Of a stretch of DNA of 64,000 nt, positions 17 through 53,810 are shown one piece after another. The notes beneath the pieces are model-generated. The model was not told the DNA's origin, searched no databases, and worked only from the letters and a program-made list of their open reading frames with translations. Source of the stretch: a virus; the IMG/VR virus record IMGVR_UViG_3300035491_000116, positions 2,239 through 66,238 of that record; one strand, given 5' to 3'. A program made the position numbers and the translations under genes. Numbering within the stretch: the stretch's first letter is position 1; the number at the start of each line of letters is the position of its first letter.

Positions 17-59
17 ATAGTACCCCTAAGTTGTTTTTGCGTAAAGCCGTAATTGCGGC
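17..59 (-). promoter_or_regulatory. sigma70-like promoter (-35 TTTACG, 17 nt, -10 TACTAT) abutting a GCCGTAATTGCGGC operator-like motif
   Basis: Minus strand reads GCCGCAATTACGGC-TTTACG-N17-TACTAT and points out of the left edge of the window. Confidence 0.6.
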
Positions 60-1499: not shown

Positions 1500-1737
1500 A
1501 GTCGATAAGCCCTTGCTGTTTGAGCCACTCGGCCAGGTGGGTGGAGGTGTAGTCGCTGCCTGTAGGCACCTCTGACTCCGGTACTTGGTGGAGGACGATC
1601 GGGTGGCTTGGCTCTCCGTCCTTCGTGCACAGGAACAGGTCGTACTTGCCTCTGACTGCCTCTTGGTAGCAGAGCAGGCGGTCGCCGTCCCGGTAGTAGG
1701 CGCGGCATAGTCCGTTCTCAACTCGCAGTAGTTTCAT
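1480..1737 (-). CDS. hypothetical protein (85 aa)
   Basis: Coupled ORF; resembles a common phage family (CRxYY...LxCxQ...LxxCTxDGEP). Confidence 0.7.
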   Translation of the reverse strand: MKLLRVENGLCRAYYRDGDRLLCYQEAVRGKYDLFLCTKDGEPSHPIVLHQVPESEVPTGSDYTSTHLAEWLKQQGLIDYEGART

Positions 1738-2279
1738 CGTGGATTGCCCTCAATGTCGTTGGGGTAGGCGTACACCAGACACTCCAGAACGTGCGCTGAA
1801 TCCGTCGGAACATCGACGAGCCGGCCGTTCTGGTCTACCAGCTGCCAGCCTTGCATGACCGCCTTGATGGTAAGCGTGTCACCGTTGTTCATGGCGATCT
1901 GGACGCCGTTCGCCACATGCCCTCGCAGAGAGTGAAAGGCGTCCTGGGTGGTTGTCGTCGGCTCCTCGTCCGGATAGGTGGTCAGGTGCTCCATAACCGG
2001 CCCGTCTTGGTCGATGGCCACCCACTGACAGCAACAGCTGTGTGCGAAGTGGAGCACCTCTTCCAGGTCTGTCGGCCAGTTGTCCGACATATCCTCGACG
2101 CGCTCGGCGACGTGCACTCGCCAGCCGTAGGTGCCGATCGGATCCGTCACAGGCAAGTCGATACCTGTGTCCGGTGTGACACCCATACGCTCTGCGACCT
2201 TGCTGTCCAGCAGATCTCTGGTCTCTTGGGAAATGTGCGCAGTCGATACGACGATCATGCGCTGAATTTCGTATGTCAT
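1734..2279 (-). CDS. hypothetical protein with STAHIS motif (DUF5983-like N-terminus)
   Basis: Likely start MTYEIQRMIVVSTAHISQET, GAGGAAGG RBS, ATGA overlap. Confidence 0.65.
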   Translation of the reverse strand: MTYEIQRMIVVSTAHISQETRDLLDSKVAERMGVTPDTGIDLPVTDPIGTYGWRVHVAERVEDMSDNWPTDLEEVLHFAHSCCCQWVAIDQDGPVMEHLTTYPDEEPTTTTQDAFHSLRGHVANGVQIAMNNGDTLTIKAVMQGWQLVDQNGRLVDVPTDSAHVLECLVYAYPNDIEGNPR

Positions 2280-14716: not shown

Positions 14717-14764
14717 CGGGTTGCTCCTTGAAGGCCCGGCCTTACGCTTGGCCGTGTTTACGGC

Positions 14765-18069: not shown

Positions 18070-18201
18070 AATTTTTTCCTTTTCGGGTAGCCACCTTTGC
18101 GGCTACCCGTCTTTGCGGTATTGATGGCCACCTTTGCGGCCGTTCGTCTCCGGCTTTCAGTGTTCAGGATAGCGAACAGCCGGTTTTGATACTTGCCGTG
18201 T

Positions 18202-18669
18202 TTACGGCTTTGGGGCGGCGCCGGGCACGTCCATGGCGGACAGGGCGGCTGTGAGAGCCTCAGCGGCGGCGTCAGCGTCGATCCGGTTGGCGGTGGGGCC
18301 GTGGGTATGGTTAAGCGACTCACGGACCTCAGCGGGGCGCTTACGCAGCGCCTCGACCATATCCCGCTCCCCAAGGGAGTGGGCATTCATCATCGCCGCT
18401 GGGATGGCCATGAGGAATCCTGGCTGGGTGTAGTCGGCCGCTTTCAGCCGTTTCATCTTGATCTCGCAGTTGAACCGATGCGGCATGACGCCGTAACGCT
18501 CCGGCATGATCCGGCGCAGCTTGCCGATGACGCTGCGCGGGGTGTCGGCAGCCAGGAACAGGCTGTGAACCGCGTAGACAACGCCCTGCTCTTTGAGGCG
18601 CAGGGTTACCAGATAGACGTTAGGACGAGGCAGCTCGCCGGCTGCGATAAACAGGCTGTGATTCGGCAT
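18202..18669 (-). CDS. hypothetical protein (155 aa)
   Basis: AAGGAACCAAGACA leader before ATG. Confidence 0.7.
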   Translation of the reverse strand: MPNHSLFIAAGELPRPNVYLVTLRLKEQGVVYAVHSLFLAADTPRSVIGKLRRIMPERYGVMPHRFNCEIKMKRLKAADYTQPGFLMAIPAAMMNAHSLGERDMVEALRKRPAEVRESLNHTHGPTANRIDADAAAEALTAALSAMDVPGAAPKP

Positions 18670-20891: not shown

Positions 20892-20935
20892 GCCGGAATT
20901 ACGGCTTTACACCTCGGCGGGGTCGCTGGTATAAC
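20892..20935 (+). promoter_or_regulatory. sigma70-like promoter (-35 TTTACA, 18 nt, -10 TATAAC) preceded by GCCGGAATTACGGC motif
   Basis: Hexamers at 20906-20911 and 20930-20935, upstream of the HU gene. Confidence 0.6.
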
Positions 20936-20975: not shown

Positions 20976-21257
20976 ATGAGCAAGAAGCTGAACACCATCG
21001 TCGACCTCACCACCTCCGTCCGAGATCAGCTCGGATGCACCAAGGCAGAGGCGCGTCGCGCTGTCGAAGCGGTACTCAACTCCATCAATGATTTGTCTGA
21101 AGACAAGAAGCTGCAGCTGAAGGGCTTCGGTACCTTCCAGATGAAGACCCGCGCACCGCGCAACATGATTGCCCCTGCAAACGGCCGCGAGTACCACATC
21201 CCACCGACCCGCAACCTGACGTTCCGTCCGTCCAAGATCGCCGGTCGCGTCGTCTGA
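20976..21257 (+). CDS. HU/IHF-family histone-like DNA-binding protein
   Basis: TKAEARRAVEAVL helix, LQLKGFGTF signature, arm RAPRNMIAP, FRPSK. Confidence 0.9.
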   Translation: MSKKLNTIVDLTTSVRDQLGCTKAEARRAVEAVLNSINDLSEDKKLQLKGFGTFQMKTRAPRNMIAPANGREYHIPPTRNLTFRPSKIAGRVV

Positions 21258-21808
21258 TGTCAGAGCAGTTCATCCCGAAAGGCTACGTCGAGATGCGGGC
21301 AACCCATCTCGCCACCGAGGAGCTGATGTCTCCTCGGATGGAGCTCAAATCCCGCGACCCCAAGCTGCTCAACAGCCTGGACGACGTCGTGGGCGGGCTT
21401 CGTGAGGGCTTGATCCCTGAGCAGCTGTGCTCCGCTCTGGTCGATGCAATGCCTGACGCCACCCGGCGCCGAATGGTGCAGAAGTCTGCGGGCCTCGATG
21501 CCACGGTGATCATGTCGCTGAAAACCATGCTTGGCAGGGTGGACGCGGTCCTCAGCAGGGTAGTGAGCGAGGACGGCACCCCTGCCGGCAGGGACGAAGA
21601 CCTTCCGATCTCGGTGAAGGACGCGCTGAACATGGCCATCCGGGTCTCGCAGGTAATCACCAAGGACCTGCCCAAGGTCTACCAGGTGGACCGCCTGCAG
21701 CGCAGAGAGGAAGCGTTGGCTTTAGTCATGGAGAAACACATGACGCCTGAGCAGCAGGACGCGCTGCTGGAGGAGCTTGAGAAGCTGGAGGGCTCTGTTG
21801 TTGAGTGA
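21257..21808 (+). CDS. terS: putative terminase small subunit
   Basis: Position upstream of terL, helical, 183 aa; no diagnostic motif. Confidence 0.5.
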   Translation: MSEQFIPKGYVEMRATHLATEELMSPRMELKSRDPKLLNSLDDVVGGLREGLIPEQLCSALVDAMPDATRRRMVQKSAGLDATVIMSLKTMLGRVDAVLSRVVSEDGTPAGRDEDLPISVKDALNMAIRVSQVITKDLPKVYQVDRLQRREEALALVMEKHMTPEQQDALLEELEKLEGSVVE

Positions 21809-21846
21809 TAGTAGTGCCTAAAGGCTATCACTAAGAGCTATTTCGC

Positions 21847-21873
21847 TGTTATTATTGCTGTATGGACATACAG
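21847..21873 (+). promoter_or_regulatory. extended -10 promoter (TG-T-TATTAT) with an overlapping LexA/SOS box CTGTATGGACATACAG (21858-21873)
   Basis: CTGT-N8-ACAG; 14/16 identical to the E. coli recA operator core CTGTATGAGCATACAG. Confidence 0.7.
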
Positions 21874-21959
21874 TTATTCCGAATTATTTCGGGTTTTTAC
21901 TGGTTAGGTAGGGTGGTCTCGATTCACCGTACCGGCTAAATGCAACAGGAAGAGAAGCA

Positions 21960-22157
21960 ATGGAAAAACAACAAGTTAAAGACATCGCACCAGGTCAATA
22001 CCGCATTTTCGGCGGCCTTCGCATTACCGTTAATCGCAGCGCCTATGGTGATGTGAGTTGGAATGCCGGACGCCTCACCTGGCTGGTATCCATGCTGCTC
22101 AAGGCCCGTCGCGCCCTCGGTAAGCAGTCCATCAAGCTGGATCCGGTGACCGTATGA
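21960..22157 (+). CDS. small basic protein (65 aa) inserted between terS and terL, putatively SOS-regulated
   Basis: AGGAAGAG RBS; stop overlaps the terL start (ATGA). Confidence 0.65.
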   Translation: MEKQQVKDIAPGQYRIFGGLRITVNRSAYGDVSWNAGRLTWLVSMLLKARRALGKQSIKLDPVTV

Positions 22158-23878
22158 GCGGGATGTCCTCCAGGCTGAGAACACGCCTGAGCAGGGAGGA
22201 CGGTCTCCGAGAGCTGGACAAAGTTGTCCAGCGCTACGGGGTCGTGAACGGGAAGCCTTTCTCGTTCAAGGACCACGAGTTCCAGATCGAGATTATCCGC
22301 GACACACGCTCCAGGCAGTCCGTCCGCAAATGTTCGCAGGTGGGGCTGTCTGAGCTGATGGTTCAAAAGACCCTGGCGCTGGCCACGGTCTTTCCTCACA
22401 AACGCTGCATTTTCACGTTGCCCACCCTCGAGTTCGCCAACAAGTTCTCAAAAGACCGTTTCGACGCGGCCATTGAGAACTCGGAGCACTACAACGCGAT
22501 GGTGGTCAAGGCGAACAACTCGGCCAGCCAGAAGAAGATCGGCAGCTTTACCCTGTATGTGGCCGGCAGCTTTGGCAACAACTCGGCGATCTCAGTACCA
22601 GCCGAGATCCTCATCAACGATGAGGTCGACTTCTCCAACCCCGAGGTGCTCGGCAAATTGTCTTCCCGCCTGCGACACGCGGAGCTTGAGGATGAGCGTG
22701 GTTACCGTGGGATGCGGAGCAAGTTCTCGACGCCGACAGTGCACGACTACGGTATCGACGGTGACTTCGAGAACGGGCACCAGGCTTACTACATGGTCAA
22801 GTGCAGCTGTTGCCAAGAGTGGGTGCTGCCGAATTTCTTCGAGGACTTCGTGGTGCCTGGATTCGATGGGGCCATGGCGGAACTGCGAAAGGGCGACCTG
22901 TCCAACCCTCGGTACCGGTTTGACGAAGCAAGCCTTCGGTGCCCGTCTTGCCGTGGTGACCTGTGGCCGGCGCTGTGTGACCCATCACGCAGGCAGTGGG
23001 TAGCGAAGCGGCCGGACGCTTGGGAGCACAGCTACCAGGTCTACCCATGGGATGCGCCTAAGTACAACCCACCAGGAGTGGTAATCCGCCAGCTGGGTGA
23101 CTACCCACTCATCTCTGACTACTACAATTTTGTGCTCGGCGTACCTCACTCTGACGCCGAGAACAGCTTCAACGTCGAGCAGGCGTACAAGGACCGGATT
23201 TCTGATGTAGAGATGTGGCAGTATCTCGTCGGAACCGTAATGTCGGGTATGCGCAATGCCGGTGTTGTCGCCGGCATGGACATCGGCAAGATCTGCCACT
23301 TCGTCGTCAAGGCTAAGGCTGGCAAAAACTGGCACGTCGTCTACGCCGAGAAGATCAAAAACACCCGGGAGAACCCGGCGACCAAGGAGATTATTGGGCG
23401 TATTGACTACTTCAGGTGTGCGAAGGTGTGTATTGACGCTGGCCCTGACATCACCCTGGTCAACAACTTGGTTGAGGCCCGCCATCAGGTGTCGGCGGTG
23501 GTCTACGTCCGCAGCATCAAAGGTCTGCAGCCGTTCGAGGTGAAAGGGGAAGGGGAGGTTATCAACGCCGACCGAACCAAGACCCTGAAGGAGCTTCTGG
23601 CGAAGCACAACAGCGGAGAGATCCGCTACATGCGGCGCCAGGACATCCGAGACGAGATTTTCAACCACCTCAAGACCACGAAAAAGATCAGGGAGCGCAG
23701 CTCGGACGGCGACATGGTCGAGCGGTTCATCAAGACCAGTGATGACGACCACTGGGTTCACGCGCTCAACTACGCGCAGATCGCGGCAATGGTCGTGTCA
23801 TCCTCGCTGACCACCGGCGTTATCGGGGTGCTGCCGGGCGTTTCGACGGTCAGGGTGGGGTCAGCGGCTGGGGACTAG
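22154..23878 (+). CDS. terL: terminase large subunit, lambda gpA-like
   Basis: Walker A RKCSQVGLSE, Walker B ILINDEVD, STPT coupling motif, CSCC and CPSC zinc motifs, nuclease GMDIG ... HWVHALNYA. Confidence 0.9.
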   Translation: MSGMSSRLRTRLSREDGLRELDKVVQRYGVVNGKPFSFKDHEFQIEIIRDTRSRQSVRKCSQVGLSELMVQKTLALATVFPHKRCIFTLPTLEFANKFSKDRFDAAIENSEHYNAMVVKANNSASQKKIGSFTLYVAGSFGNNSAISVPAEILINDEVDFSNPEVLGKLSSRLRHAELEDERGYRGMRSKFSTPTVHDYGIDGDFENGHQAYYMVKCSCCQEWVLPNFFEDFVVPGFDGAMAELRKGDLSNPRYRFDEASLRCPSCRGDLWPALCDPSRRQWVAKRPDAWEHSYQVYPWDAPKYNPPGVVIRQLGDYPLISDYYNFVLGVPHSDAENSFNVEQAYKDRISDVEMWQYLVGTVMSGMRNAGVVAGMDIGKICHFVVKAKAGKNWHVVYAEKIKNTRENPATKEIIGRIDYFRCAKVCIDAGPDITLVNNLVEARHQVSAVVYVRSIKGLQPFEVKGEGEVINADRTKTLKELLAKHNSGEIRYMRRQDIRDEIFNHLKTTKKIRERSSDGDMVERFIKTSDDDHWVHALNYAQIAAMVVSSSLTTGVIGVLPGVSTVRVGSAAGD

Positions 23879-27202: not shown

Positions 27203-27661
27203 ATGGCTGATTTTGCATTCAACCTGTTGGCGCAAAACCCTGAGCGGTTGAACGTCATTTCTACCCGCCTCGGCGCCTCCAAAGCCGAGAAATTCAACGA
27301 CGCTGATGTAGGCAAGGCTGTGAAGCTCGGGACTGCTTCCAACCACGTTCTGTGTGCGTCTGGTGACGAGATCCAGGCTATCGTCGACAGCATCGACAGC
27401 GGTGGCACCAACGGCGGCTACAGCTTCGGCGGTGTTGACCGCGGCACCCGTGGCTTCCGCGTCAAGGCGGTGATCGGCCCCAACCAGGGTGCGACCGCTG
27501 CAGCGCTGGACGATCTGGTCGTTGCAGACGATCAGGTTGCCGTAAACACAGCAGGCATCGCCCGCGTAATTACGGGCACTCCGACAATCAACAAGTGGCG
27601 AATCATGGCTATGAACGGCGACGGTACTGCTGGTACCGAAGTCATTCTCGAGCTGTGCTAA
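27203..27661 (+). CDS. head decoration/cement protein
   Basis: 152 aa, Gly-rich and beta-rich, between protease and capsid; AAGGAGG RBS. Confidence 0.65.
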   Translation: MADFAFNLLAQNPERLNVISTRLGASKAEKFNDADVGKAVKLGTASNHVLCASGDEIQAIVDSIDSGGTNGGYSFGGVDRGTRGFRVKAVIGPNQGATAAALDDLVVADDQVAVNTAGIARVITGTPTINKWRIMAMNGDGTAGTEVILELC

Positions 27662-32639: not shown

Positions 32640-32669
32640 GCCGTAAAGCCGGTGATTCGGCTTTACGGC
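32640..32669. promoter_or_regulatory. perfect 12-bp inverted repeat GCCGTAAAGCCG-N6-CGGCTTTACGGC
   Basis: Intergenic between tail tube and chaperone; built from two copies of the genome-wide motif. Confidence 0.7.
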
Positions 32670-45992: not shown

Positions 45993-46073
45993 GTTGTGGC
46001 AAAAAACCGTGAAAGCAGTAGAATGTTATTGCCGTAAACCCGGCAAAGAGAAAATACGGTAATCGGAGGCGGG

Positions 46074-53775: not shown

Positions 53776-53810
53776 ACCGTATTTACGGCAATACGGTTTT
53801 GCGGTAGTCT
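53775..53810 (+). promoter_or_regulatory. candidate lysis promoter (-35 TTTACG, 17 nt, -10 TAGTCT) inside the inverted repeat AACCGTATT-N6-AATACGGTT
   Basis: Hexamers at 53782-53787 and 53805-53810; overlaps a copy of the genome-wide motif. Confidence 0.55.

What the first reader, a model, noticed from the sequence alone, without database searches (positions are those of the whole stretch)
21847..22157. Near-perfect LexA (SOS) box controlling a small gene coupled to the terminase large subunit
Seen: CTGTATGGACATACAG at 21858-21873, two nt after an extended -10 (TG-T-TATTAT, 21847-21855), so it would cover the start site. A weak hairpin-T tract follows (21879-21898), then a 65-aa ORF whose stop overlaps the terL ATG. 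Established: gammaproteobacterial LexA binds CTGT-N8-ACAG; the E. coli recA operator core differs from this one at only 2 of 16 positions. Inference: host DNA damage could switch on the unknown protein and terL, or bound LexA could block terS-to-terL read-through and gate packaging. This is unexpected because no lysogeny genes appear in the window.
Basis: partly seen in the sequence, partly recalled or inferred. Interest (0 to 1): 0.75.

Follow-up and report, generated by a model that had tools for sequence, protein, structure and literature searches.

The report
SOS-controlled small gene before prophage terminase
A very good binding site for the host DNA-damage repressor LexA sits on a promoter in front of a tiny orphan gene joined to the terminase gene, and the phage turns out to be an integrated (temperate) prophage, so this is a sensible but unusually placed variant of a known kind of SOS switch.

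Summary
CTGTATGGACATACAG lies at 21858-21873, 2 nt after an extended -10 (TGTTATTAT). A hairpin plus T-run follows, then a 65-aa ORF whose stop overlaps the terL ATG. The bare CTGT-N8-ACAG skeleton is not beyond chance (1.29 expected per window). The full 16-mer is: it scores 19.6 bits on a matrix built from 19 lexA-upstream operators of Gammaproteobacteria (their median is 19.3). About 0.01 such sites are expected per 79 kb, and it matches the E. coli recA operator at 14 of 16 positions. Six near-identical metagenome relatives keep CTGTA/TACAG, the -10 and the hairpin unchanged while the positions between vary. A diverged lineage (terL 62-63% identical) carries a different strong LexA-like box in the same terS-like|small-ORF gap.

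The 79-kb record is a prophage inserted in the 5' end of host lepA, flanked by an 18-bp direct repeat, with an integrase 667 bp left of the window.

Best reading: a LexA-repressed, moron-like cassette (low GC, orphan ORF65 under purifying selection) gives SOS-inducible ORF65 with read-through into terL. ORF65's function is unknown. The host could not be named; it is probably Pseudomonas-like. This is a new variant of a known kind and of moderate interest.

The parts
20976..21257 (+). HU/IHF-like DNA-binding protein gene (93 aa), first gene of the packaging unit
   Evidence: Pfam Bac_DNA_binding, E 3.3e-18; PHROG 379. Found at the same position in UAntarctica, PMBT3, Lana and the metagenome relatives.
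21257..21808 (+). Conserved 183-aa gene, small-terminase-like by position only
   Evidence: No Pfam or PHROG hit. 36% identical to UAntarctica uan_048. The Atlas gives only weak leads to T5_Terminase_small and DUF1804 at 0.82-0.83. Its role is inferred, not shown.
21804..21832 (.). IR1: inverted repeat AGTGATAG-N13-CTATCACT. It spans the stop codon of the 183-aa gene and the -35 position.
   Evidence: RNA hairpin dG -10.4 kcal/mol; unique in the genome. Both arms are invariant (16/16) and the loop is variable (6/13) in relatives.
21847..21855 (+). Extended -10 element TGTTATTAT. The -35 position, 21827-21832 ATCACT, is weak.
   Evidence: Read directly from the sequence. 9/9 invariant in 7 relatives, while the 14-nt spacer upstream varies at 6 positions. 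Not called by the consensus scanner because the -35 matches only 3 of 6.
21858..21873 (.). LexA (SOS) operator CTGTATGGACATACAG, covering the predicted transcription start
   Evidence: The site scores 19.6 bits and is the only strong site in the 79-kb prophage. It matches the E. coli recA operator at 14 of 16 positions. The outer CTGTA/TACAG is 10/10 invariant. The inner positions vary at 3 of 6 and do not keep the palindrome.
21878..21898 (+). Leader hairpin TCCGAA-TTAT-TTCGGG followed by T5 (T6 in relatives): a weak intrinsic terminator or attenuator about 15 nt after the predicted start
   Evidence: See: dG -6.2 kcal/mol, z -2.05. 20 of 21 positions are invariant, and the one change (A to G) keeps a G-U pair.
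21947..21954 (+). Ribosome-binding site AGGAAGAG, 5 nt before the ORF65 ATG
   Evidence: Read directly from the sequence.
21960..22157 (+). ORF65: orphan 65-aa basic protein, translationally coupled to terL (ATGA overlap)
   Evidence: pN/pS is 0.07-0.22 against relatives at pS 0.17-0.25. The only homologues are its own 90% cluster of 7 members. No Pfam or PHROG hit. GC3 is 0.59 against 0.76-0.81 in the neighbouring genes.
22154..23878 (+). Terminase large subunit (574 aa, lambda gpA type)
   Evidence: PHROG 675, E 8e-107; Pfam GpA_ATPase.

Best explanation
The 151-bp gap plus ORF65 is a moron-like cassette. It sits in a hypervariable slot between the terS-like gene and terL of a temperate, Lana/PMBT3-like siphovirus that is integrated in host lepA.

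The cassette carries its own sigma-70 promoter with an extended -10. The transcription start is covered by a high-affinity operator for the host LexA repressor.

In the undamaged lysogen, LexA dimers would occlude the promoter. After DNA damage, RecA-stimulated LexA cleavage would free it. ORF65 would then be transcribed and, through the ATGA overlap and the lack of a later terminator, so would terL. The conserved weak hairpin plus T-run in the leader would damp this output.

Shown here: the operator's quality, its position, its conservation pattern, its recurrence in another lineage, prophage status, and that ORF65 is a real gene.

Inferred: LexA binding, promoter activity, SOS induction, and what ORF65 does.

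My best guess for ORF65, at about 0.3, is an SOS-triggered switch factor of the antirepressor kind. The reasons are that this is the only LexA site in the prophage and that no self-cleaving S24 repressor is detectable.
For: 1. Operator quality. The site scores 19.6 bits, equal to the median of 19 real lexA-upstream operators. The next best site in the prophage scores 12.2. It matches the verified E. coli recA operator at 14 of 16 positions.

2. Chance. 0.011 such sites are expected per 79 kb, and 2 of 300 simulated genomes reached this score.

3. Position. The site lies in non-coding DNA, 2 nt after TGTTATTAT.

4. Footprint in 7 relatives from several samples. The -10, CTGTA/TACAG, the IR1 arms and the hairpin are invariant. 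The spacer, the IR1 loop, the box centre and the flanks vary at 43-50% of positions. The central changes break the inner palindrome, which argues against an RNA hairpin and for half-site recognition.

5. Recurrence. L005 and L060 (terL 62-63% identical) carry CTGGCTTTTTATACAG (18.9 bits) and CTGTCTTTTTATACAG (21.3 bits) in the same gap, before an unrelated 70-aa ORF that also overlaps terL. Pseudomonas phage UAntarctica has one 19.6-bit site in its large non-coding control block.

6. Lifestyle. The element has an integrase, an HTH_17-like excisionase candidate and 18-bp att repeats in lepA. No S24 or HTH_3 repressor was found.

7. Cassette nature. The gap has GC 0.42. ORF65 has GC3 0.59, against 0.76-0.81 for its neighbours. 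The slot holds unrelated ORFs of 51 to about 155 aa in relatives.

8. Box type. Cultured relatives infect Pseudomonas, whose LexA consensus is CTGTATAAATATACAG (PMC13114513). 15 of 16 sampled genomes of the host's class have CTG-N10-CAG boxes upstream of lexA.
Against: - There is no binding or expression data.
- The host could not be named or its lexA inspected; the best flank match is 90% over 126 nt of lepA.
- The -35 is poor, and the scanner did not call the promoter here or in L060.
- A terminator-like hairpin about 15 nt after the predicted start would cut output.
- The lineage closest in terL (L003/L058/L061, 68-70%) has no gap and no box. PMBT3 and the Lana packaging region have none either.
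- Nothing links ORF65 to any known SOS protein or antirepressor.
- The matrix was trained on sites pre-selected as CTG-N10-CAG.
Confidence: 0.65

Rival explanations
1. The palindrome is the operator of some other regulator, phage-encoded or a different host protein, or it is one of a pair of RNA hairpins ending the terS-like transcript. Its likeness to a LexA box would then be coincidental.
For: The site is a 7+7 palindrome that can fold (dG -6.0 kcal/mol). It lies between two other inverted repeats, IR1 and the T-run hairpin. The prophage repressor has not been identified.
Against: - No second copy exists within 3 mismatches anywhere in the window, and the half-sites are not enriched. Phage repressor operators normally come in sets.
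- Relatives change positions 6, 7 and 10 in ways that break the stem while keeping CTGTA/TACAG.
- A 19.6-bit match to the LexA matrix is expected 0.01 times per genome.
- Different LexA-type sequences occur in the same gap in L005 and L060.
Confidence: 0.12
2. LexA binds here but not as the repressor of a local promoter. It could act as a roadblock to read-through from the terS-like gene into terL. Alternatively it could act as a copy-number timer that is titrated as phage DNA replicates, so that packaging genes are licensed late.
For: The site lies inside the packaging unit, between the terS-like gene and terL. LexA-like sites recur at the same junction in another lineage. The virulent relative UAntarctica also carries one strong site, which an induction switch cannot explain. 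The -35 is weak.
Against: The extended -10 is invariant and sits exactly 2 nt upstream, which is the classical occlusion geometry. The low-GC cassette looks like a self-contained promoter-plus-gene unit. From general knowledge, roadblocking by LexA is not an established mechanism. Nothing measured here speaks to it.
Confidence: 0.1
3. The site is a chance or decaying sequence with no present function.
For: The skeleton CTGT-N8-ACAG is expected 1.29 times per window. There is a single site, the closest terL lineage lacks it, and there is no functional data.
Against: The full-site score has p about 0.01 per genome. It lies in the 5% of the record that is non-coding, next to a -10. The half-sites are invariant among relatives whose neighbouring positions vary at 43-50%. 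The box type recurs independently.
Confidence: 0.08

Closest known systems
LexA-controlled dinI/antirepressor loci of Salmonella Gifsy prophages (GfoA, GftA, GfhA) and coliphage 186 tum
   Same: Both have a LexA box on a promoter outside the immunity region of a prophage. Both boxes are preceded by a terminator-like palindrome and drive a small protein gene. Both prophages lack a self-cleaving repressor. In Gifsy, induction is plugged straight into SOS (PMC3121763). The 186 tum case is from my own knowledge.
   Different: ORF65 has no detectable similarity to those proteins or to DinI. The cassette sits between the terS-like gene and terL and is translationally coupled to terL. Antirepressor activity and a cognate repressor have not been shown.
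SaPI operon I (packaging module of Staphylococcus aureus pathogenicity islands) repressed by LexA
   Same: Host LexA directly controls a promoter in front of DNA-packaging genes of a mobile element (PMC5052747 citing Ubeda et al. 2007).
   Different: SaPIs are satellites of Gram-positive bacteria with the Firmicute-type box, and their operon carries terS and capsid-remodelling genes. Here the element is a complete 79-kb phage with the gammaproteobacterial box, and the gene behind the box is an orphan followed by terL.
E. coli recA operator and Pseudomonas aeruginosa LexA consensus
   Same: The site matches the recA operator CTGTATGAGCATACAG at 14 of 16 positions. Both half-sites match the P. 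aeruginosa consensus CTGTATAAATATACAG (PMC13114513).
   Different: The centre is GGAC rather than AT-rich. Comparable centres do occur in natural lexA operators sampled here, for example CTGTATAGACATCCAG and CTGTACACACATACAG.
Pseudomonas phages Lana (Lanavirus), PMBT3 (Maxrubnervirus) and UAntarctica
   Same: They share the order HU-like gene, terS-like gene, small ORF slot, gpA-type terL, portal. The portal is 65-69% identical in amino acids.
   Different: PMBT3 is reported as virulent with no lysogeny genes (PMC8421299), and no integrase was found in PMBT3 or UAntarctica. None of the three has a gap or a LexA box before terL. This element has an integrase and is integrated.

Membership tests
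Gammaproteobacterial-type LexA (SOS) operator | 16-bp palindromic motif CTGT-N8-ACAG (CTG-N10-CAG) | tested here: met
   CTGTATGGACATACAG at 21858-21873. It is kept as CTGTA-N6-TACAG in 6 relatives.
Gammaproteobacterial-type LexA (SOS) operator | Whole-site score within the range of genuine operators and above the genomic background | tested here: met
   19.6 bits, against a leave-one-out range of 9.9-25.6 (median 19.3) for 19 lexA-upstream boxes. The next site in the prophage scores 12.2. Expected 0.011 times per genome; reached in 2 of 300 simulations.
Gammaproteobacterial-type LexA (SOS) operator | Overlaps core promoter elements or the transcription start | tested here: inconclusive
   The site starts 2 nt after an invariant extended -10. 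However the -35 is weak, the scanner made no call, and no transcription start data exist.
Gammaproteobacterial-type LexA (SOS) operator | The host encodes a LexA of this specificity | tested here: inconclusive
Its lepA flank matches class Gammaproteobacteria genomes at up to 90%. 15 of 16 sampled genomes of that class have such boxes upstream of lexA. Cultured relatives infect Pseudomonas, whose consensus is of this type.
Gammaproteobacterial-type LexA (SOS) operator | LexA binding in vitro or in vivo, and SOS-dependent derepression | not testable with these tools
   Needs EMSA or ChIP and reporter assays.
LexA-controlled antirepressor module (Gifsy / 186 Tum type) | LexA-boxed promoter in front of a small ORF outside the immunity region of a prophage | tested here: met
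   This is the only strong LexA site in the element.
LexA-controlled antirepressor module (Gifsy / 186 Tum type) | The prophage repressor is not self-cleaving | tested here: inconclusive
   No Peptidase_S24 and no HTH_3 match in the record. But no repressor was identified at all, and the record is estimated 91% complete.
LexA-controlled antirepressor module (Gifsy / 186 Tum type) | Sequence or fold relationship of the small protein to known antirepressors | tested here: not met
   No Pfam or PHROG hit. No homologues beyond its own cluster among 1.84 billion representatives. The AF2 model is too poor to search with (pLDDT 59.9).
Integrated temperate prophage | Tyrosine integrase next to one end, direct att repeats at both ends, host gene sequence outside them | tested here: met
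   The integrase has Arm-DNA-bind_3, Phage_int_M and Phage_integrase domains and is 44% identical to integrases of temperate coliphages. The 18-bp repeat lies at C1:109-126 and 79104-79121. The right end reads as the LepA N-terminus, whose first 16 codons are supplied by the phage.
Moron (autonomous promoter-gene cassette in a late operon) | Own promoter, composition unlike its neighbours, present or absent among relatives at one slot | tested here: met
   The gap has GC 0.42 and ORF65 has GC3 0.59, against 0.76-0.81 for the neighbours. The slot holds unrelated ORFs, or no gap, in relatives. One departure from the classic moron layout: the only terminator-like element lies upstream of the ORF, not downstream.
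SaPI operon I-type LexA-controlled packaging module | The element is a phage satellite with the Firmicute LexA box | tested here: not met
   This is a complete 79-kb phage with its own replication, head and tail genes and the gammaproteobacterial box. It works like operon I in placing LexA before packaging genes, but it is not a member.

The most novel reading that the evidence does not exclude
Host LexA is a recurrent, selected input into DNA packaging or late expression in this group of large Pseudomonas-type siphoviruses, temperate and virulent alike. Operators of different sequence have been placed at the terS-like|terL junction in at least two lineages, and in the central control block of virulent UAntarctica. 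In this reading LexA cleavage, or its titration by replicating phage genomes, licenses terminase expression. ORF65-type orphans would be accessories of that checkpoint rather than ordinary morons.
Probability: 0.2. Interest if true: 0.7.

Novelty: new variant of a known kind. Interest (0 to 1): 0.45.

Why it matters
LexA-controlled genes in prophages are well known: antirepressors, DinI-like genes, bacteriocins, SaPI operon I. As far as my literature searches reached, a LexA operator directly in front of the large terminase gene of a complete Gram-negative phage is not a described arrangement.

If confirmed, it would give three things:
- An SOS-inducible orphan protein whose function can be tested as a candidate new induction trigger, in a prophage without a recognisable CI/S24 repressor.
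- A first temperate, lepA-integrating member of a phage group known only from virulent isolates (Lana, PMBT3, UAntarctica).
- A natural case in which two lineages carry different LexA operators at the same gene junction, which is useful for asking why packaging genes should listen to the SOS signal.

It does not open a long-standing question, so the interest is moderate.

Tried and rejected
- Naming the host. The genome search does not draw relatives for a virus record. The lepA flank matched unnamed class-level genomes at no more than 90%. The non-coding left flank found nothing in the family or orders of the best three, or in the 400-genome class sample. The single genome-contig scan found only a distant Nitrosomonas MAG terL. 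The host genus stays inferred.
- RNA evidence: no RNA holder listed.
- ORF65 function. AF2 on a single sequence gave pLDDT 59.9 (beta-hairpin plus helix), too poor for a fold search. The Atlas gave no usable hit. The profile search of 1.84 billion proteins returned only its own cluster plus short repeat-like matches. PHROGs at a relaxed threshold gave nothing.
- Homology of ORF65 with the 70-72-aa ORFs at the same slot: hhalign probability 0.2%, and BLASTP found no alignment. They are positional analogues only.
- A cos or terminase-recognition site: rejected. UAntarctica and L003 have no gap at this junction, and the palindrome is not repeated.
- A known RNA family in the gap: none in Rfam at E up to 1.
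- The consensus promoter scan called no promoter at the box in the window or in L060. In L060 I could find only -10-like hexamers.
- The 12.4-bit site in L004 and L073 lies within the range of simulated genome maxima (13.1 +/- 2.1), so it is not counted as evidence.
- Genome G040 is flagged unpublished.

Full report
**What is in the sequence.**
- The 183-aa gene ends at 21808.
- The extended -10 TGTTATTAT lies at 21847-21855.
- The box CTGTATGGACATACAG lies at 21858-21873.
- A six-pair hairpin followed by T5 lies at 21878-21898. Its dG is -6.2 kcal/mol and its z-score is -2.05.
- The ribosome-binding site AGGAAGAG lies at 21947-21954.
- A 65-codon ORF runs from 21960 to 22157, and its TGA overlaps the ATG of the next gene.

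That next gene is a lambda gpA-type large terminase (PHROG 675, E 8e-107; Pfam GpA_ATPase). It is followed by the portal gene and an S49 head protease. Upstream lie an HU-like DNA-binding protein gene and the conserved 183-aa gene. The 183-aa gene has no family match. I call it terS-like by position only.

An inverted repeat, AGTGATAG-N13-CTATCACT (21804-21832), spans the stop codon of the 183-aa gene and the -35 position.

**Is the box more than chance?**
The bare skeleton CTGT-N8-ACAG is not. There is one match against 1.29 expected per 64 kb. It is also the only match in the whole 79,229-bp record.

Of 16 genomes, 15 had CTG-N10-CAG boxes within about 85 nt of the lexA start, giving 19 boxes. 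I built a symmetrised matrix from these.
- The phage site scores 19.6 bits. The leave-one-out median of the training sites is 19.3 (range 9.9-25.6).
- The next best site in the prophage scores 12.2 and lies inside a gene.
- A score this high is expected 0.011 times per 79 kb and 0.0009 times in the 4.3 kb of non-coding DNA.
- It was reached in 2 of 300 first-order Markov simulations, whose maxima averaged 13.1 +/- 2.1.

The K-12 operator reads CTGTATGAGCATACAG, so only the two central bases differ. GC-containing centres like this one occur in natural lexA operators of the sample, for example CTGTATAGACATCCAG and CTGTACACACATACAG.

**Near relatives.**
ORF65 has homologues only in its own 90% cluster of seven sequences. 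Their contigs come from several ENA and JGI samples. I aligned them with the window (alignment A1).

The box reads CTGTA[T/C][G/A]GA[C/T]ATACAG in the six relatives that cover it. A column-by-column count gives a clear footprint.

| Element | Variable positions |
|---|---|
| IR1 arms | 0/16 |
| Extended -10 | 0/9 |
| CTGTA and TACAG | 0/10 |
| Hairpin plus T-run | 1/21 (A to G, keeps a G-U pair) |
| IR1 loop | 6/13 |
| -35/-10 spacer | 6/14 |
| Box centre | 3/6 |
| Bases flanking the box | 3/6 |

The central changes do not preserve the inner palindrome. This fits recognition of two half-sites by a dimer and argues against an RNA stem.

ORF65 itself is under purifying selection, with pN/pS of 0.07-0.22 at pS of 0.17-0.25. 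It is therefore a real gene.

**More distant relatives.**
Pseudomonas phages UAntarctica, Lana and PMBT3 are the closest cultured relatives. terL is about 65% identical at the DNA level and the portal is 65-69% identical in amino acids.

All share the order HU-like gene, terS-like gene, small ORF, terL. The small ORF differs completely between lineages:
- 62 aa in UAntarctica
- 51 aa in L003
- 70-72 aa in L004 and L005
- about 124 aa in Lana
- about 155 aa in PMBT3

Profile comparison gives no support for homology with ORF65. The position is therefore a hypervariable slot.

The gap and ORF65 are also compositionally foreign. The gap has GC 0.42. ORF65 has GC3 0.59, against 0.76-0.81 for the flanking genes. 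Together these facts make the gap plus ORF65 a moron-like cassette.

**Recurrence of LexA-like boxes.**
I scanned the relatives with the matrix.
- L005 (IMG/VR) and L060 (a 76.7-kb metagenome contig) have terL 62-63% identical to the window's. They carry CTGGCTTTTTATACAG (18.9 bits) and CTGTCTTTTTATACAG (21.3 bits).
- These boxes lie in the same gap, between the terS-like stop and a 70-aa ORF that also overlaps terL. The surrounding gap sequence is not alignable with the window's by eye.
- So the operator type, not the surrounding sequence, is what recurs.
- UAntarctica, a Pseudomonas phage, has a single 19.6-bit site, CTGTATATCCATCCAG. It lies in the 840-bp non-coding block between its divergent modules.
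- PMBT3 (maximum 11.7), the Lana packaging region (maximum 6.9) and the L003/L058/L061 lineage (no gap) have none.
- L004 and L073 have only a 12.4-bit site, which is within the chance range.

**The phage is temperate.**
The window is bases 2239-66238 of a 79,229-bp record.
- A 409-aa integrase lies at record positions 342-1571. It has Arm-DNA-bind_3, Phage_int_M and Phage_integrase domains and is 44% identical to integrases of temperate coliphages.
- A weak HTH_17 (excisionase-like) ORF follows it.
- The record is flanked by an exact 18-bp direct repeat, TCCATCATTGCCCATATC, at 109-126 and 79104-79121.
- The right end translates as the N-terminus of elongation factor 4 (LepA). Its first 16 codons are supplied by the phage. 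The displaced original 5' end sits at the left end.

This is therefore an integrated prophage in the 5' end of lepA.

No Peptidase_S24 or HTH_3 repressor is detectable. No integrase is present in PMBT3 or UAntarctica, and PMBT3 is published as virulent (PMC8421299). The element is thus a temperate member of a group known from virulent isolates.

**Host and box type.**
I could not name the host.
- The non-coding flank found no close genome.
- The relatives' hosts are Pseudomonas.
- The published P. aeruginosa LexA consensus is CTGTATAAATATACAG (PMC13114513).

The box type is therefore the expected one, but this step is inferred.

**Mechanism proposed.**
LexA bound at 21858-21873 would cover roughly -3 to +12 of the promoter defined by the extended -10. 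This is the classical occlusion geometry. In the lysogen the promoter is shut. LexA cleavage during SOS opens it. ORF65 is then made, and transcription can continue into terL, because no plus-strand terminator was found between 21900 and 24300 and the two genes overlap.

The conserved weak hairpin plus T-run in the leader probably attenuates this output. It may also end transcripts coming from the terS-like gene. IR1 at the -35 position may bind a second, unknown regulator or stabilise the upstream mRNA.

What ORF65 does is unknown. It is a basic orphan with a predicted beta-hairpin and helix, from a low-confidence model. This is the only LexA site in the element and no self-cleaving repressor is visible. 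An antirepressor-type induction trigger, as in Gifsy prophages (PMC3121763), is therefore my leading guess at about 0.3. An SOS-timed accessory of packaging is the main alternative.

**Comparison with known systems.**
The arrangement works like two known systems:
- the LexA-controlled dinI/antirepressor loci of Gifsy prophages, which also have a palindrome before the LexA box;
- SaPI operon I, where LexA controls a packaging module (PMC5052747).

It is a member of neither. ORF65 is unrelated to their proteins, the element is a complete phage, and the box is the gammaproteobacterial type. I file it as a new variant of a known kind.

**Verdict.**
Confidence that this is a working LexA-repressed promoter is 0.65. 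Interest is 0.45.

A note from this scan on the same genome (e1-5351352) reports a repeated GCCGTAAWNNCGGC motif at operon junctions. I confirmed its enrichment, with 10 matches against 0.46 expected, including one at 20892-20905 ahead of the HU-like gene. The motif is absent from the gap studied here.

Noticed in passing
G000:C1:1-1800 and 79050-79229 (outside the window: about 2.2 kb left and 13 kb right of it): The record is a prophage inserted in the 5' end of host lepA (EF4). An 18-bp direct repeat, TCCATCATTGCCCATATC, lies at C1:109-126 and 79104-79121. The integrase is at 342-1571 and a weak HTH_17 excisionase-like ORF at 1549-1797 (minus strand). The phage arm supplies a new start and the first 16 codons, so lepA stays intact.
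   Followed up: yes
L005:2449-2464 and L060:2184-2199: A diverged lineage (terL 62-63% identical) has strong LexA-like boxes, CTGGCTTTTTATACAG and CTGTCTTTTTATACAG (18.9 and 21.3 bits). They lie in the same gap before an unrelated 70-aa ORF that overlaps terL. No consensus promoter was called there.
   Followed up: partly
L074:2129-2144 (Pseudomonas phage UAntarctica MZ605292.1, 17628-17643): This integrase-less Pseudomonas phage carries one 19.6-bit LexA-like site, CTGTATATCCATCCAG. It lies in an 840-bp non-coding block between divergent gene modules. Why a phage with no integrase would keep a LexA operator is unexplained.
   Followed up: partly
window 21809-22157 and the same slot in L002, L003, L004, L005, L056, L091: The position between the terS-like gene and terL is a hypervariable slot. 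It holds unrelated ORFs of 51 to about 155 aa, with or without a gap, in every relative examined.
   Followed up: partly
window 21804-21832: Inverted repeat AGTGATAG-N13-CTATCACT overlaps the stop codon of the 183-aa gene and the -35 position. The arms are invariant and the loop is variable in relatives. It is unique in the genome. It could be a second operator or an mRNA 3' hairpin.
   Followed up: partly
window 20976-21257: A phage-encoded HU/IHF-like gene always sits immediately before the terS-like gene in this phage group. This recalls the IHF requirement at lambda cosB for gpA-type terminases.
   Followed up: no
window 46-59, 14751-14764, 18195-18208, 20892-20905, 27539-27552, 32640-32653, 46031-46044, 53776-53789: The short palindromic motif GCCGTAAWNNCGGC is strongly enriched: 10 strand-matches at up to 1 mismatch, against 0.46 expected. 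It lies mostly at gene-unit junctions. It is not present in the gap studied here.
   Followed up: partly
G000 whole record: This temperate element has a full replication set (a 1201-aa DNA polymerase ORF, ligase, SbcCD-like nuclease) but no recognisable CI/Cro-type (HTH_3) or S24 repressor. How lysogeny is maintained is open.
   Followed up: partly
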